A stretch of 56,388 nt of DNA from positions 1-56,388 of IMG/VR virus record IMGVR_UViG_2909282993_000001; one strand, 5' to 3'. Below, in pieces: positions 45,001 through 51,000 of the stretch (its first letter is position 1; every line of letters begins with the position of its first letter). This stretch comes from a virus (taxonomy: Duplodnaviria; Heunggongvirae; Uroviricota; Caudoviricetes). The position numbers are program-made.

Positions 45001-48000
45001 CTGCGCTGTCTTTTCCGTGCCGGTGATGGTGTATTGGTTGATTCTTTGTTGGTCATGGCGCAGCCCTGTAAAACGATGCACCGTAGTTCCTCACACCACG
45101 GCGCTGGTGATGGTTACTCCTGTTCTTTGGCCTTGCGGCGCTGGCGGTATTCAACTTCTCGCTTTAATGCTGCTGTTACAAACTGCCCTGTACTTTCACC
45201 AGGCATTTTTACCGCCTCAACATTGTTCATAACTTCATGCGGAACCCTTGCCGCAACTGTTTGTGATTTTGCGTTTACTGCTTTTGTCGCCATGTTGTGT
45301 ACCCCTTACAAAAAACAAATGCAGTATGCAGGAAAAAAAATAAGTGTTCAACACTTGACGTGTTTAACACCTGGGCTTAAATTGGTGTTCAACACCTTGT
45401 TGATGCAAGGTGCAGAAACGACAACGCCCCGCAGTGGTGGCACACATGCAGGGCGTCTAACCACCAACGATAGCAAGAGTATCGAGGTAGCTATGAGAAA
45501 TCATACCACACACCCGCAAGGGCGGGACTCGCACAACCTGAATAAATACATCTGGCGTTTTATCGCCCTGAGCACGGCACAACCGCGCGTAATTCACATC
45601 GAGGCCACCAGCGAACAGGAAGCACGCCAGCAATCTCCTGATGGCTGCGTGATGGTATTCGCCGCCCGTATTCGCCAGGAGGTGGAACATGTGTAATGCA
45701 ACATGGCCTGATGCAGCGGTAGACGCTATCAAAACGCTGATGGATTCACTTATTGAGATTTCTGCTATCGCTGGTGTGGCGCATAAACACGCAGCCAGAG
45801 AATCAGAATGCATCTCCCATTATTTAGCATTTGTGCAGCTAAAAGCCGATCAGGCACTGGATAAGGCCGGAAAAATTATCATGGCTGATGTGCAGGAGGT
45901 GCACCATGCATAACCTGTCAATTTCTGACCTTAACAGCATTCAGTTTGACGAGAAATTTACCGGGCAGTTGCTGGTCAATGTGGAGAACGGGCGCATAGT
46001 GCGTAATTACCACCTGCCGGATGGTGCAATTGCCGGAAGCGTTGAAGCATTGCTGGAACTGGCGGAACGTGCGCGACTGATTAAGCCGTCAACGAGCCAT
46101 CACGATGATGATCTGCATTTTACCGGGCGTATGGTGAGTCACTACGAAAACGGCGTTGAAGTATCCCGCGAACGGCTGCGTGATGATTGCTGTTTCGGCA
46201 CACTGCCGGAATTTATCGAGTTGCTGACCAGTTGCGGTTATCAGGTCATTCAGGGGGGTAAACATGCGTGATGATCGTTTTAATTCCCTGAAACGGGAAT
46301 TTGATGGCGCACCGGAAGATGCAGCGGGCGCATTGTTGAGCGTTGCTGACATGATGAAAGCTGCATATTTTCTTATCAATACCAGTGGCTACAAGTCAGA
46401 GGGTGAAATGATTCTTAGTATTGCGTCGGACTATGCGGAATATGTGGCAGAGACGCGTTACAGAAGAAAATTCACGGAGGATGTAAGCCATGCATAATCA
46501 TGAAGCGCATGTACCCGTAGTGCTTAATGTGCCAGATGATTTCACCGGACGCGTACTGGTTTACCTGGATAAAGGGAAAGTGAAATCACAATGCCGACTG
46601 AAAAGTAATGAGATTGTTGGTTCTCCTGAATTTTTTTCTGAACTTTGTATTCGTGCGGAAATAAAACCGGAACTGCTGACAGGAAAATAAAACCATGAAA
46701 AAGAAAAATTCTGGCTTTACTGCCAGCGGCCTCTCTCGGCCTGAAATCCGCCCCGGTGATATTTTCCGGGACACCAGACGCGGGGGACGGGTGGTTATTC
46801 GTCACGTTACGCCAGGCAATATCACCTACCGCCGTGAGGCTTACGAATATGACTGCGTAATGCCGCGCCGTCAGTTTGATCGTGATTTTATTGTGGTGGA
46901 AAACAAACAACAGGCAGTGGCGAGACGTGCAGCCACGAATATTAAAAAAATCCGGGCAATGTTGGTTGCGGGAGGTAAGAAGTGAAAAACGCACCGAGTC
47001 TAAAATATCAGCCGAAGGATAAATTCACTGAGGTAATCATTTTTGCCGGGATGGATGCTTACGCCCATGCTCAACACTGGATTGAAAGTGAAGGACGAAA
47101 ACACGGCGATAACGTGCCTCCTGTTTACCTGGGACCAAAGCAACTGGCAGACCTGGCGAATATCCGCATTATTGACGAGAAACGCCGTTTTGCGCGTGTC
47201 TATATCGCGGGGGAGATAGAGCCAATCCAGATCAATACTATCGCTGAAAAGCTGGCGCTGGCTGGCGTACAGGAGGCGAAATTATACAAAGGTATCACCG
47301 ACCAGGAACCGGAGAACTGGCGCGACTACCTGCAACGGATCCGCGAACAGGCTGAGCACGGGGAAGTTTCAGTGATGAAATTAGCTACAAAAAATAGTGG
47401 TCTACCCAAGCCTGCATTAAATCAGATGGGAGCCAGCCAGAGAGGGGAAGTGTTACTTGAACATTATGGAGGAGCACTGGCGATAAATGATGATTCTGAT
47501 GTAGTTCACCATTACAACGGAATTGTTTGGGAGCCTGTATCTGATAAGGAACTCCAGCGGTCTATGGCGAAGATTTTTATTGATGCCGAAATTAGTTATT
47601 CGCAAAACGCCATTAAATTTGCCGTAGAGACAATGAAATTGAGTCTACCTGTTATGGGGGAGCGGACAGAAATCTTATTGGGTTCAGTAACGGTGTTTTT
47701 GATATCAGGACAGGAAATTTTCGGGAACACAACAAAAATGACTGGTTGTTAAATGCCAGTGAATTACCGTTCAGCCCGCCAGAAGAGGGGGAAACGCTGG
47801 CAACACATGCGCCGAATTTCTGGAAGTGGTTGCGTCGTTCGGTGGCGGATAATGCTCGTAAAGCGGATCGCGTACTGGCGGCATTATTCATGGTACTGGC
47901 GAACCGGTACGACTGGCAGTTATTCCTTGAGGTAACGGGGCCGGGCGGAAGCGGTAAAAGTGTGATGGCGGAGATTTGTACCATGCTGGCGGGTAAGGCC

Positions 48001-51000
48001 AATACAGTATCGGCGAGCATGAAGGCGCTGGAAGACGCGAGGGAACGAGCGTTAGTGGTGGGATATTCTCTGATTATCATGCCTGACATGACCCGCTACT
48101 CAGGTGATGGTGCTGGGATTAAGGCCATTACAGGCGGTGACAAGGTGGCTATCGATCCGAAACACAAAGCGCCCTATTCCACGCGCGTTCCTGCGGTAGT
48201 GCTGGCAGTAAACAATTATGCCATGTCATTCAGCGACCGTAGTGGGGGGATCTCGCGTCGACGAGTAATATTTAATTTCTCTGAGGTTGTACCAGAGAAC
48301 GAACGCGATCCGATGCTGGCGAAAAAGATAGAAGGGGAACTGGCAGTAGTGATTCGCCATTTGCTTACACGATTTGCCGACCAGGACGAAGCGAAAAGAC
48401 TACTTTATGAGCAGCAAAAATCAGAAGAAGCACTGTTGATAAAGCGTGAAGGTGATTCGCTGGTGGACTTCTGCGGTTATCTGATGTCGTTGGTTAAATG
48501 TGAGGGAATGATAGTAGGTAATGCAGAAATAGTGCCATTTAGTCCGAGGCGATATCTGTATCATGCTTATTTGGCTTATATGTCTGCGCATGGTCTGGGA
48601 AAACCGGTATCACTGACACGCTTTGGTACAGATATGCCAGGGGCAATGGCTGAGTACGGAAAGGAGTACAAGCGGGCTAAATGCACTAAAGGTCCAGATA
48701 AAGGGCGAACGATCACAAATGTTCTGTTAGATAAAGATGCTGATGGATGGTTACCAGCAACGGCAGGCATTAACGACAGAACATGATACGAAATTTATAA
48801 GTTGAAACTTAAAAGTAGACGGTTGGTAGACAGATACACTTAACCCTCTACCAACCATCTACTAATTAATGTTTTGAATTATATAGGTATTTTTAATGTG
48901 GCAGAGAGGTGGACAGTTTATTTTATATTTCTAAACCACGGGGGTATCTAAAAATAGATAGTTATGGGTTCATTTTTAAAATTTTTCTTTTAACTATCTA
49001 CACTGTCTACCATTTAGTAAAAGTCATTAATTATCAATGTATTAATACTGTAGAGAGTTGGTAGACAGTTTGCAGATTGTTTTTTTGTTATGTATTAATA
49101 ACATTAAATAAATCAAACAATTATATCGGTAGACAGTTGGTAGACAGTTGTAACGATGGGGCAAAGCATGACTAAGCTGACCATTAACAGAAAACCGAAA
49201 GGCATTTACGGCACGCCGCAGAAAACGACGCAGGCGGCGCAGGAGCAGGATAAAACCACATCGGCGCATAAAGTGATGCCCGGTAACCAGAAAGCGCAGC
49301 AAAAGCCCACAGGGGCGACACCGTGGCGGCATATGACCAAACGCCAGCGCAAAAACCGCAGGCGCGTTAACCGCCTCACTGAGTTGTGGCCTGACTTATT
49401 CAGCCGGGAAGCACCGAAGCCGCTTAAGGTGGGGATATTCGACGACCTGATGCAGGATCTCGCCGTCAGGGGGCTGGCATTCGGGCCAGGGGCATTGCGT
49501 GCGACGCTGGCATCTTATGCGCAGTGTCCGCACTATTACCGCGCCTTAATGGCTGGTGGGGTACGCTACGACCTGAAAGGCCAGCCGTGCGGCGAGGTGA
49601 CACCACAGGAACAACAGGACGCAGAAACGCGGCTGGTGGCGCTGAATGAGAAGCGCAAACGCCAGCGCCGGGCAGCAAAGGAGACAATAGGCGCATGATT
49701 CACGACAGCAAAGCGGAAGCACTGGAAGCGCGTGGTCTGTACCGGAGAGCGGCGGCGCGGTGGGCTGAGGTCATCATGCTGGCGAATGATGACAAGGCAC
49801 GGGAACAGGCGGCAAAACGTCGCGCGGAATGTATCCACAAGGCAGCACGCCCACCAGCAAGGCAGGATAATTTCGGGGGAGATGCGCGAAACCATCAGCC
49901 GGGCACATGCCGGGATGGGATTACATCAGCCCAATGGTGAGGCATTCAGGAAATACCAAAAAAAGAACAATTGTAGTCAGTAACAGAGGATGGGATTCTC
50001 TTGGTTTTTTGTTGATGCTTTCTGAGGAAATCTACTACGTTGCTGAGCAGATGAATATTCAATTGCATCTGGGTTCCTGATAAGATTAATCTGAATATTT
50101 TCATTTGGAATAGGGATATGAATAAAACTTTAATTGCAACATTAGTCGGTATAGTAATGTTAACCGGATGTGGGCCAGAAGAGTTAACTCCAGAACAGAA
50201 ACAGGAAGTAGCGGCTCTTAAAGCTGAACTGTCGCAAACGGAAGGTGAAATATCAGCAGCTAAGGAAGTTGACCAGCAGTTTTCTGGTGGGTTGATAAAA
50301 AATCTGACAACAGCAAGACTGGAAATATTAGGAACTAATAAAGCGCTTTTGGAACAGCGTATTAATGCTATTGAATCAGGTGCCAAAATTGATGTTGTTG
50401 TATCTGGAGTAAAACCTGATCCTGAGCTTGCGGCTTCAATTAAAACTGAAATTGACAGCTTAGATGCAAAAATCAACGAAGCCAAAGCTGATGCTCGTCA
50501 GTATAGTGGTGGTCTGATAAAGGTACTAAAATTATCTACTGTTGCCACTGAAGAGCAGACCATGGCAATGTTGCAGCAAAAGTACCTCACAGCCAAGTAT
50601 GGCCTCGCTGAAGTTAAGCTGGCATCAGTACAAGATAATGACGCAAAAAACAGTACTGAAACGGAAGTAACAGCCAAAAATTCCCAAGGGCAACTTCCTT
50701 TACTCCCGCCAGCGGATGGTCCGTTTGGCTTAGAAGCCGGTCTTACACAGAAAAACATCGAAGATATGATCGGTGCTAAGCTCAAGCCACTACCAGACAG
50801 TGTGAATCTGTATACTTCTGATAAATTACCGAAGCAAAACGCAGATTTTGAAATGTATGGTTTGTTGATCTCCCCGAAAGCTGGTTTATGTCAAATACGG
50901 GCTTTAGGAAAAAATATTGATACTGATAGCTATGGATTGGCTCTTAAATCCAAGTTTGAAGAATTGAGTAATTCTTTAAGTTCTCTGTATGGAAAGGCTG

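What the first reader, a model, noticed from the sequence alone, without database searches (positions are those of the whole stretch)
46982..48786. Island primase/helicase split across two reading frames
Protein-like sequence continues in the downstream frame upstream of its nominal start (...LIGFSNGVFDIRTGNFREHNKNDWLLNASEL...), overlapping the end of the upstream ORF. This suggests a frameshift mutation or sequencing error in a single P4 alpha-like gene, which would make the island replication-defective and would matter for any claim that it is mobilisable.
Basis: seen in the sequence. Interest (0 to 1): 0.4.

Follow-up and report, generated by a model that had tools for sequence, protein, structure and literature searches.

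The report
One-base frameshift in island replication gene
A single missing G in a run of six Gs splits the replication helicase gene of a small phage-satellite-type island into two reading frames; this is an ordinary pseudogene or sequencing error, not a new gene arrangement.

Summary
ORF1 (46982..47752) and ORF2 (nominal start 47746, end 48786) are two halves of one 601-codon gene. They are separated only by a G5 run at 47656-47660, where every relative has G6.

The 56,388-base window matches E. coli O169:H41 F6326-C1 except at three positions, and this is one of them. All 75 complete E. coli genomes that carry the segment have G6 and one intact ORF.

The intact protein has an unclassified N-terminal module of about 130 aa, then D5_N, an SF3 helicase and a P4-alpha-type origin-binding domain. 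It is 49% identical to P4 alpha residues 327-769. It lacks P4's zinc-ribbon and Toprim primase. The break lies inside D5_N, not at a domain boundary.

The gene sits in a 14.6-kb PICI-type island (int, int-alpA RNA, alpA, rep, iteron origin) at tRNA-Thr, next to a prophage.

The sequence alone cannot show whether G5 is a true mutation or a homopolymer undercall; I put the odds near even. The same G5 call recurs in six noisy public read-set assemblies. If it is real, the island should be replication-defective, with slight leakiness because a -1 ribosomal slip on the G run restores the exact wild-type protein.

The finding is ordinary and of low interest.

The parts
46982..47752 (+). ORF1: the first 226 codons of the replication gene (N-terminal module plus the first ~70 residues of D5_N), then 30 out-of-frame codons and a TAA stop
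47656..47660 (+). G5 homopolymer, the site of the lesion. All relatives have G6 here (ATG GGG GGA GCG = M G G A)
47659..48786 (+). Rest of the gene in the -1 frame (residues 227-601 of the intact protein): second half of D5_N, DUF5906/SF3 helicase P-loop, and Pox_D5 / P4-alpha origin-binding domain. The nominal ORF2 start at TTG 47746 has no Shine-Dalgarno sequence
48815..49147 (.). Candidate island origin. Two clusters of GTAGAC/T-A/G-G iterons (48815-48862 and 49001-49147; core GGTAGACAG = TGTCTACC on the other strand) flank an AT-rich stretch. The region is 29% G+C against 45% for the island. All five exact GGTAGACAG copies in the window are here
   Evidence: layout as described for PICI origins in PMC6092414; P4 type I repeat is TGTTCACC
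40741..40793 (+). Left attachment repeat of the island: a copy of the 3' 46 nt of tRNA-Thr(CGU). It is also the right end of the neighbouring prophage
40953..42167 (+). Island integrase (Arm-DNA-bind_3, Phage_int_M, Phage_integrase domains)
42212..42279 (+). int-alpA RNA motif (Rfam RF02996, 45.5 bits, gathering score 35.8)
43321..43518 (+). alpA-family regulator/excisionase (PF05930, E=2.4e-19)
55357..55380 (+). Right attachment repeat of the island (GCACCATTTAAATCAA..., 22 of 24 identical to the tRNA-Thr end and its flank)

Best explanation
The two ORFs are one gene. That gene encodes the 601-aa replication initiator-helicase of a PICI-type integrative island. In this sequence it is interrupted by the loss of one G from a G6 run, leaving G5 at 47656-47660, within codons 226-227.

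Read as written, translation leaves the correct frame after Met-Gly226, adds 30 unrelated residues and stops at 47750-47752. The product keeps the N-terminal module and about half of the D5_N domain. It lacks the rest of D5_N, the Walker A/B helicase core and the origin-binding domain. The downstream part has no credible start of its own.

A G6-to-G5 contraction is what replication slippage produces. It is also what homopolymer undercalling by sequencers produces. I put the odds at about 50% assembly or sequencing artefact and 45% genuine mutation.

If the mutation is genuine, the island should be unable to fire its own iteron origin (48815-49147) after induction. This step is an inference. 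Some leakiness is possible, because a -1 slip of the P-site tRNA-Gly on G-GGG-G restores the exact wild-type protein.
For: Shown by tool results:
- The gene is identical to that of E. coli F8111-1SC3 and F6326-C1 over 1805 nt except for the one G.
- The whole 56,388-bp window differs from F6326-C1 at only three sites: A8/A7 at 6703-6709, an A/G SNP at 39298, and this G6/G5.
- The last 29.7 kb differ from ETEC E1373 at only the SNP and this G.
- 75 of 75 complete E. coli genomes with the 80-bp segment have the longer allele and a single annotated CDS.
- The G5 32-mer has no exact match in 185,579 species-representative genomes.
- P4 alpha aligns without a gap across the junction. The 72.5%-identical homologue in vB_KppS-Ant is one ORF.
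- D5_N spans residues 156-285, so the break at residue 226 is inside a domain.
- ORF2-frame start candidates lack a Shine-Dalgarno sequence, and later ones lie at or beyond the Walker A motif.
- A simulated -1 slip gives a protein identical to WP_032201487.1.

Bearing on artefact versus real:
- The exact ORF1 product occurs on six short public read-set contigs. These are on a different allele background (three SNPs from the window) and carry further, variable homopolymer contractions such as T7>T6, A7>A6, G5>G4 and another G6>G5.
- Within the clone, two of the three variable sites are homopolymer lengths.

From the literature: the rep gene and the ori are required for EcCICFT073 replication (PMC6092414).
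Against: Nothing argues against the single-gene reading.

Against the artefact sub-reading:
- The window is otherwise clean. It has no other window-specific homopolymer change in 56 kb, although the gene alone holds 12 runs of 5 or more.
- It carries its own unique SNP, so it is not simply a noisy copy of a known genome.

Against the genuine-mutation sub-reading:
- No other assembly of good quality shares G5.
- This tract is demonstrably undercalled in noisy data.

Loss of replication has not been measured for this island.
Confidence: 0.95

Rival explanations
1. Refinement A of the best explanation: the missing G is only in the assembly, as a homopolymer undercall. The strain has the intact 601-aa gene and a replication-competent island.
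For: - The change is a one-base contraction of a G6 run, the typical residual error of long-read and flow-based sequencing.
- G5 is unique among 75 complete genomes, including two that are otherwise identical over 29.7-56 kb.
- The same G5 call appears in six noisy read-set contigs on another allele background, together with other variable homopolymer contractions.
- Two of the three variable sites in the clone are homopolymer lengths.
Against: - The window shows no other private homopolymer error in 56 kb.
- If the source is a short-read assembly, such an error would be unusual.
- The six noisy contigs were retrieved because they carry G5, so they show the error is possible but not how frequent it is.
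Confidence: 0.5
2. Refinement B of the best explanation: a genuine slippage mutation has made the replication gene a pseudogene. The island in this strain can still excise but cannot replicate autonomously, so its helper-mediated transfer would be much reduced.
For: - Homopolymers are natural slippage hot spots.
- The window has a private SNP at 39298, so it is a distinct isolate or lineage.
- Decay is already visible nearby. The island's PerC-family gene is frameshifted in all relatives. The neighbouring prophage has a pinE gene with an internal stop and another frameshifted gene.
- Frameshifted copies of this gene family at other positions are common in databases (P0001, P0013, P0066, P0092).
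Against: - No good-quality genome shares the allele.
- With 1 SNP per 56 kb of divergence, a real indel in the window is not expected a priori. This is an inference from the usual SNP-to-indel ratios.
Confidence: 0.45
3. The G run is a functional switch. It could be a programmed -1 ribosomal frameshift that makes a short and a long product, or a phase-variable tract that turns island replication off and on.
For: - A -1 slip on G-GGG-G restores the exact wild-type protein.
- The short product would contain the complete N-terminal module. In a Klebsiella lineage that module exists as a separate ORF.
Against: - There is no length variation in 75 of 75 complete genomes.
- More distant homologues have no G run at this site (PVMGVTARN / PVMGNTARN).
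- The downstream 90 nt fold no better than shuffles (z = 0.23).
- There is no X-XXY-YYZ heptamer.
- A 5-6 nt tract is short for a contingency locus.
Confidence: 0.03
4. A natural two-gene arrangement (separate 'pri' and 'rep', as in staphylococcal islands), with both products made and functional.
For: - PICIs can have separate pri and rep genes (PMC6092414).
- A Klebsiella pneumoniae island lineage has the N-terminal module (135 aa) and an AAA_25 helicase as overlapping ORFs. The second has its own ATG and a GAGGGA Shine-Dalgarno sequence, at the interdomain linker.
Against: - Here the split lies about 90 residues past the linker, inside D5_N (residues 156-285).
- ORF2 has only a TTG start without a Shine-Dalgarno sequence.
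- Sequences identical apart from one base are single ORFs in 75 genomes.
Confidence: 0.02

Closest known systems
Bacteriophage P4 alpha protein (NP_042036.1, 777 aa; primase-helicase-origin binding)
   Same: - 49% identity over residues 146-592 against P4 alpha 327-769 (E=1e-153).
- The same D5_N, DUF5906 (SF3 helicase) and Pox_D5 domains.
- The C-terminus matches the solved P4 alpha origin-binding domain 1ka8 (E=1.2e-18).
- Octamer-type iterons lie next to the gene: TGTCTACC here, TGTTCACC in P4.
   Different: - It lacks P4's Zn_Ribbon_Prim and Toprim primase (P4 residues 30-299). It has instead an unrelated ~130-aa module (hhalign probability 0.7%).
- The TIGR01613 score of 93.9 is below the 108.7 cut-off.
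- The island has no sid, psu or delta genes.
Gram-negative phage-inducible chromosomal islands (EcCICFT073, EcCIEDL933, EcCIMP1)
   Same: - int at the left end, an int-alpA RNA motif, alpA, rightward transcription, and a rep gene followed by an origin made of two iteron sets around an AT-rich core.
- A PerC-family gene, a size of about 14.6 kb, and no structural or lysis genes recognised by Pfam or PHROGs.
- EcCIMP1 sits at the same tRNA-Thr/proA site, shares the int, HTH, antirepressor, DUF4222 and Icd-like gene order, and is experimentally mobilised.
   Different: - EcCIMP1's replication protein is a 918-aa Toprim + DUF927 protein, not this one.
- Induction, helper phage and packaging of the present island are untested.
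- Its PerC gene is a pseudogene. In this window its rep gene is also broken.
Intact allele WP_032201487.1 / WP_001723123.1 ('DNA primase family protein' / 'DUF5906 domain-containing protein') in E. coli F6326-C1, F8111-1SC3, E1373, EC20 and others
   Same: Nucleotide-identical (F8111-1SC3, F6326-C1, E1373) or 99.8% identical, in the same island at the same site.
   Different: One extra G (G6) gives a single 1806-bp ORF.
Replication protein of capsid-forming-PICI-like element 'Escherichia phage vB_KppS-Ant' (LR881103.1, CAD5235982.1)
   Same: 72.5% identity over 99% of the length, including the N-terminal module; a single ORF in an int/rep island.
   Different: That element also carries capsid, portal, head-tail connector and terminase genes. 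The island here does not.

Membership tests
P4 alpha-type primase-helicase | N-terminal zinc-ribbon plus Toprim primase domain | tested here: not met
   P4 alpha has Zn_Ribbon_Prim (30-66) and Toprim_3 (210-299). The intact homologue of the window gene has no Pfam hit in residues 1-155. hhalign of the N-module profile against P4 alpha 1-326 gives probability 0.7%. Foldseek against the PDB gives no hit at E<=0.001.
P4 alpha-type primase-helicase | D5_N plus SF3 helicase P-loop core | tested here: met
   D5_N 156-285 (E=1e-12) and DUF5906 319-427 (E=5e-10); 49% identity to P4 alpha.
P4 alpha-type primase-helicase | C-terminal winged-helix origin-binding domain | tested here: met
   Pox_D5 490-567. 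PDB 1ka8 (P4 alpha C-terminal domain) matches residues 491-592 at E=1.2e-18.
P4 alpha-type primase-helicase | NCBIfam TIGR01613 (phage/plasmid primase, P4 family, C-terminal domain) at or above its curated cut-off | tested here: not met
   93.9 bits against a cut-off of 108.7. The similarity is clear but below threshold.
P4 alpha-type primase-helicase | Primase activity | not testable with these tools
   No catalytic primase domain is recognisable; a biochemical assay is needed.
Gram-negative PICI (criteria of Fillol-Salom et al. 2018, PMC6092414) | Integrase at one end and specific attachment-site repeats | tested here: met
   int at 40953-42167. tRNA-Thr 3' copies at 40741-40793 and 55357-55380.
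Gram-negative PICI (criteria of Fillol-Salom et al. 2018, PMC6092414) | alpA regulator downstream of int, with unidirectional rightward transcription | tested here: met
   PF05930 at 43321-43518. int-alpA RNA RF02996 at 42212-42279. All but three small annotated genes are on the + strand.
Gram-negative PICI (criteria of Fillol-Salom et al. 2018, PMC6092414) | Replication gene followed immediately by an origin with two iteron sets flanking an AT-rich region | tested here: met
   Iterons at 48815-48862 and 49001-49147; 29% G+C; all five exact GGTAGACAG copies in the window lie here. Function has not been tested.
Gram-negative PICI (criteria of Fillol-Salom et al. 2018, PMC6092414) | Helper-phage-dependent induction, replication and packaging with high-frequency transfer | not testable with these tools
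   Only the cousin EcCIMP1 has been shown to be mobilised (PMC11773190).
Programmed -1 ribosomal frameshift site | Slippery heptamer, downstream stimulatory structure, and conservation of the two-frame layout in homologues | tested here: not met
   No X-XXY-YYZ heptamer. The downstream 90 nt give z = 0.23 against shuffles. 75 of 75 homologous genomes are in one frame.
Phase-variable (contingency) homopolymer tract | Tract length varies among closely related genomes | tested here: not met
   All 75 complete genomes have G6. G5 is seen otherwise only in error-laden read-set contigs.

The most novel reading that the evidence does not exclude
The G6/G5 tract is a reversible on/off switch for satellite replication, and this sequence captures an 'off' variant. 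In that variant a low level of full-length Rep is still made by -1 tRNA-Gly slippage on G-GGG-G. This would keep the island quiescent yet rescuable.
Probability: 0.03. Interest if true: 0.4.

Novelty: already known. Interest (0 to 1): 0.08.

Why it matters
It matters only locally. Anyone using this sequence to argue that the island is an active, mobilisable satellite must first check the G-run length in the reads. If G5 is real, the island's replication protein is truncated before its helicase and origin-binding domains, so autonomous replication should fail. If G5 is an artefact, the gene is intact, as in 75 other genomes. The case also shows that the 'DNA primase' label on this gene family is not backed by a recognisable primase domain.

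Tried and rejected
- An exact-pattern scan of 185,579 species-representative genomes for the G5 32-mer found nothing. This shows only that the allele is rare.
- The search for homologous proteins with the N-terminal 226 aa returned only short or partial proteins of 384 aa or less. It could not be used to count intact versus split homologues. It did reveal the N-module fused to other helicase types.
- Most of those short hits are contig-end truncations or frameshifts at other positions. None breaks at this site.
- The AlphaFold model of residues 1-226 is confident (mean pLDDT 84.4). Foldseek against the PDB gave no hit at E<=0.001. BFVD gave only primase-helicase proteins, probably through the D5_N half. 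My initial idea of a degenerate Toprim ('IIFAGxDAYAHA' resembling 'EGxxDA') is therefore unsupported. hhalign against the P4 alpha N-terminus was also negative.
- I looked for an RNA structure downstream of the slip site and found none beyond shuffles.
- Rfam on the island found only the int-alpA motif.
- A full-window comparison with E1373 could be run only for window 26686-56388, because one fetched locus did not reach the scripting sandbox. For the first 26.7 kb I rely on F6326-C1 and an 80-bp spot check.
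Full report
**Observation**

The ORF listing gives ORF1 at 46982..47752 (GTG start, 256 aa) and ORF2 at 47746..48786 (TTG start, 346 aa) on the + strand. Their frames differ by -1. Three-frame translation of 47560-47800 shows the ORF2 frame is open from 47617. It reads ...GGADRNLIGFSNGVFDIRTGNFREHNKNDWLLNASELPFSPPEEGETL, so the quoted peptide lies at 47674-47766, upstream of ORF2's nominal start. Meanwhile ORF1 continues as ...PVMGERTEILLGSVTVFLISGQEIFGNTTKMTGC*. The description is accurate.

**Locating the lesion**

A megablast of 46982-48786 against 5,426 complete E. coli genomes gave 72 records at 99% identity or more. Every listed full-length hit spans 1806 bases against the query's 1805, and each is annotated as one CDS ('DNA primase family protein' or 'DUF5906 domain-containing protein').

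Alignment with E. coli F8111-1SC3 shows a single difference over the whole gene. The window reads TTAT-GGGGGAGCGG and the relative reads TTATGGGGGGAGCGG. That is G5 at 47656-47660 against G6. The intact reading is ATG GGG GGA GCG GAC (M G G A D).

An 80-bp probe across the site hit 75 genomes, all with the longer allele and none with G5. The G5 32-mer has no exact match in 185,579 species-representative genomes.

**How close the window is to known genomes**

The window runs from the proA start to the end of a LysR gene.
- It matches E. coli O169:H41 F6326-C1 (NZ_CP024263.1, 4518106-4574495) at 56,387 of 56,390 alignment columns. The differences are A7 against A8 at 6703-6709 (intergenic), A against G at 39298, and this G5 against G6.
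- Against ETEC E1373 (NZ_LR882990.1), window 26686-56388 differs only at 39298 and the G run.
- The A7 allele is shared with E1373 and seven other genomes out of 950.
- The A at 39298 is private to the window.

The window is therefore a third member of one clone, with one private SNP and one private homopolymer contraction.

**What the gene is**

The intact 601-aa protein has D5_N (156-285), DUF5906, which is the SF3 helicase P-loop (319-427), and Pox_D5 (490-567).
- It scores 93.9 bits on TIGR01613 'phage/plasmid primase, P4 family', below the 108.7 cut-off.
- It matches PHROG 864 'DNA primase' at 7.7e-152.
- Its C-terminus matches the solved origin-binding domain of P4 alpha (1ka8, E=1.2e-18).
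- BLASTP against P4 alpha gives 49% identity over residues 146-592 against 327-769, ungapped across the frameshift site.

P4 alpha's own primase, Zn_Ribbon_Prim 30-66 and Toprim 210-299, has no counterpart. Residues 1-~130 of the window protein form a separate module. It has invariant positions (A4 P5 P11 E17 I20 F21 G23 A26 D43 P46 P47 L50 R72 K90 L91). In other Enterobacteriaceae the same module is fused to DUF927 or to AAA_25 helicases.

AlphaFold2 models the module confidently as an alpha/beta domain, followed by a disordered linker at 128-142. Foldseek finds no significant PDB match. hhalign finds no similarity to the P4 alpha N-terminus. So 'P4 alpha-like' is right for the helicase and origin-binding two-thirds, and 'primase' is unproven.

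**Consequence of the break**

The frameshift follows residue 226, in the middle of D5_N and upstream of the Walker A motif (GPGGSGKS, about residue 320).

ORF2-frame start candidates are TTG 47746, TTG 47830, GTG 47842 and ATG 47890. Further candidates (GTG 47962, ATG 47965, ATG 47983) follow, at or beyond the Walker A motif. None of the candidates has a convincing Shine-Dalgarno sequence. So a functional second product is unlikely; this is an inference.

A -1 slip that re-reads base 47659 gives a protein identical to the wild type. A low-level leak is therefore conceivable, again by inference. The downstream 90 nt have no unusual structure (z = 0.23). Distant homologues have no G run at this position (PVMGVTARN / PVMGNTARN). 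A programmed event is therefore not supported.

**Context**

tRNA-Thr(CGU) is at 1369-1444. Its 3' 46 nt recur at 40741-40793, and a shorter copy lies at 55357-55380. A ~39-kb prophage (1445-40740) and a 14.6-kb island (40741-55380) therefore sit in tandem at one attachment site.

The island contains, in order:
- a P4-type integrase (40953-42167);
- the Rfam int-alpA RNA motif (42212-42279);
- AlpA (43321-43518);
- an AntA/AntB antirepressor and an Icd-like gene;
- several small ORFs and a DUF4222 gene;
- the replication gene;
- ProQ/FinO;
- a PerC-family gene that is frameshifted in all relatives;
- hypothetical genes, with no recognisable structural or lysis genes.

Immediately 3' of the replication gene is a 29% G+C stretch with two clusters of GTAGACAG-type iterons (48815-48862 and 49001-49147). 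All five exact GGTAGACAG copies in the window are there. This is the origin layout described for PICIs: two iteron sets flanking an AT-rich region 3' of rep. In EcCICFT073, deleting rep abolished replication and deleting ori significantly reduced it (PMC6092414).

A cousin island, EcCIMP1, occupies the same proA/tRNA-Thr site with a similar gene order but a Toprim-DUF927 replication protein. It is experimentally mobilised by phage Kapi1 (PMC11773190). The closest phage-database homologue (72.5% identity, one ORF) lies in a capsid-forming-PICI-like element, vB_KppS-Ant.

**Mutation or artefact?**

A look-up of the exact 256-aa ORF1 product found it only on six short contigs assembled from public read sets. 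Aligned with the window and F6326-C1, these contigs sit on a different allele background, with three SNPs. Each carries other homopolymer contractions that vary from run to run: T7>T6, A7>A6, G5>G4, CC>C and a second G6>G5. So this G6 run is undercalled in noisy data.

On the other hand, the window has no other private homopolymer change in 56 kb, and it has a private SNP. Real decay is also visible nearby, in the PerC, pinE and another frameshifted gene in the relatives. The platform and source of the window are unknown, and it is not among the complete RefSeq E. coli genomes.

I cannot decide. I put it at about 50% artefact, 45% genuine and 5% anything else.

No homologue shows the same two-ORF organisation at this site. 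A Klebsiella pneumoniae island lineage does encode the N-module (135 aa) and an AAA_25 helicase as overlapping ORFs, and the second has its own ATG and a GAGGGA Shine-Dalgarno sequence. That split is at the interdomain linker and involves a different helicase, so it does not rescue a split inside D5_N.

**Verdict**

It is a one-base homopolymer frameshift, or a miscall, in a known and widely annotated replication gene of a PICI-type island. It is ordinary and of low interest. It matters mainly as a caveat for any claim about this island's activity.

Noticed in passing
window 1369-1451, 40741-40793, 55357-55380: A ~39-kb prophage (1445-40740; int on the minus strand at the left, tail-fibre and pinE genes at the right) and the 14.6-kb island are integrated in tandem at tRNA-Thr(CGU) beside proA. 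They are separated by a 46-nt copy of the tRNA 3' end. Whether the neighbouring prophage is the island's helper is unknown.
   Followed up: partly
window 46982-47380 (residues 1-~130 of the replication protein): A conserved ~130-aa alpha/beta module with no Pfam family and no significant PDB fold match. In other Enterobacteriaceae it is fused to three different helicase types (D5_N/SF3, DUF927, AAA_25). It occupies the position where P4 alpha has its zinc-ribbon and Toprim primase. Its function is unknown; it could be a priming or recruitment domain.
   Followed up: partly
L011 4001-4408 and 4377-5417 (Klebsiella pneumoniae, GCA_039575045.1): In a capsid-gene-carrying island, the same N-module is a separate 135-aa ORF. 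It overlaps by 32 nt an AAA_25 helicase ORF that has its own ATG and a GAGGGA Shine-Dalgarno sequence. The exact 135-aa protein is listed on 80 contigs. This may be a natural split at the interdomain linker or a fixed frameshift.
   Followed up: partly
window 48815-49147: An AT-rich (29% G+C) region with two clusters of GTAGACAG-type iterons immediately 3' of the replication gene. It is the candidate island origin, and its core TGTCTACC resembles the P4 type I repeat TGTTCACC.
   Followed up: partly
window 44389-45696 (+): A 435-codon stop-free frame with a cysteine-rich, unprotein-like translation. Only its last ~90 codons have homologues (Icd-like; PHROG 6196, 'transcriptional repressor'). 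RefSeq annotates only 204-405 bp of it. Two small annotated genes lie on the opposite strand inside it. Such a long open frame is not expected by chance, and I did not explain it.
   Followed up: partly
window 49695-49983: The island's PerC-family regulator gene is annotated as frameshifted in F6326-C1, F8111-1SC3, EC20 and E1373, and it has the same sequence here. It is therefore an older, shared pseudogene in this island lineage.
   Followed up: no
window 6703-6709 and 39298: These are the other two differences from F6326-C1. The first is A7 against A8, just downstream of the ymfK (LexA-family) gene; A7 occurs in 8 of 950 genomes, including E1373. The second is a private A-for-G change that, by my reading of the frame (not tool-verified), would make AGT (Ser) into AAT (Asn) in a hypothetical protein.
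   Followed up: partly
window 43166-43231: Two tandem copies of a 33-nt unit (TTACCATCACCCTTAGGGTAGATTTCCTCCCGA, 94% identical), about 90 nt upstream of alpA. It may be a regulatory binding site.
   Followed up: no
window 8931-9053: Six copies of a repeat reported as a 30-nt family, mostly spaced 15 nt apart (recurring core TCAAAATCTGAC), in the prophage early region. It looks like a lambdoid-type replication origin.
   Followed up: no
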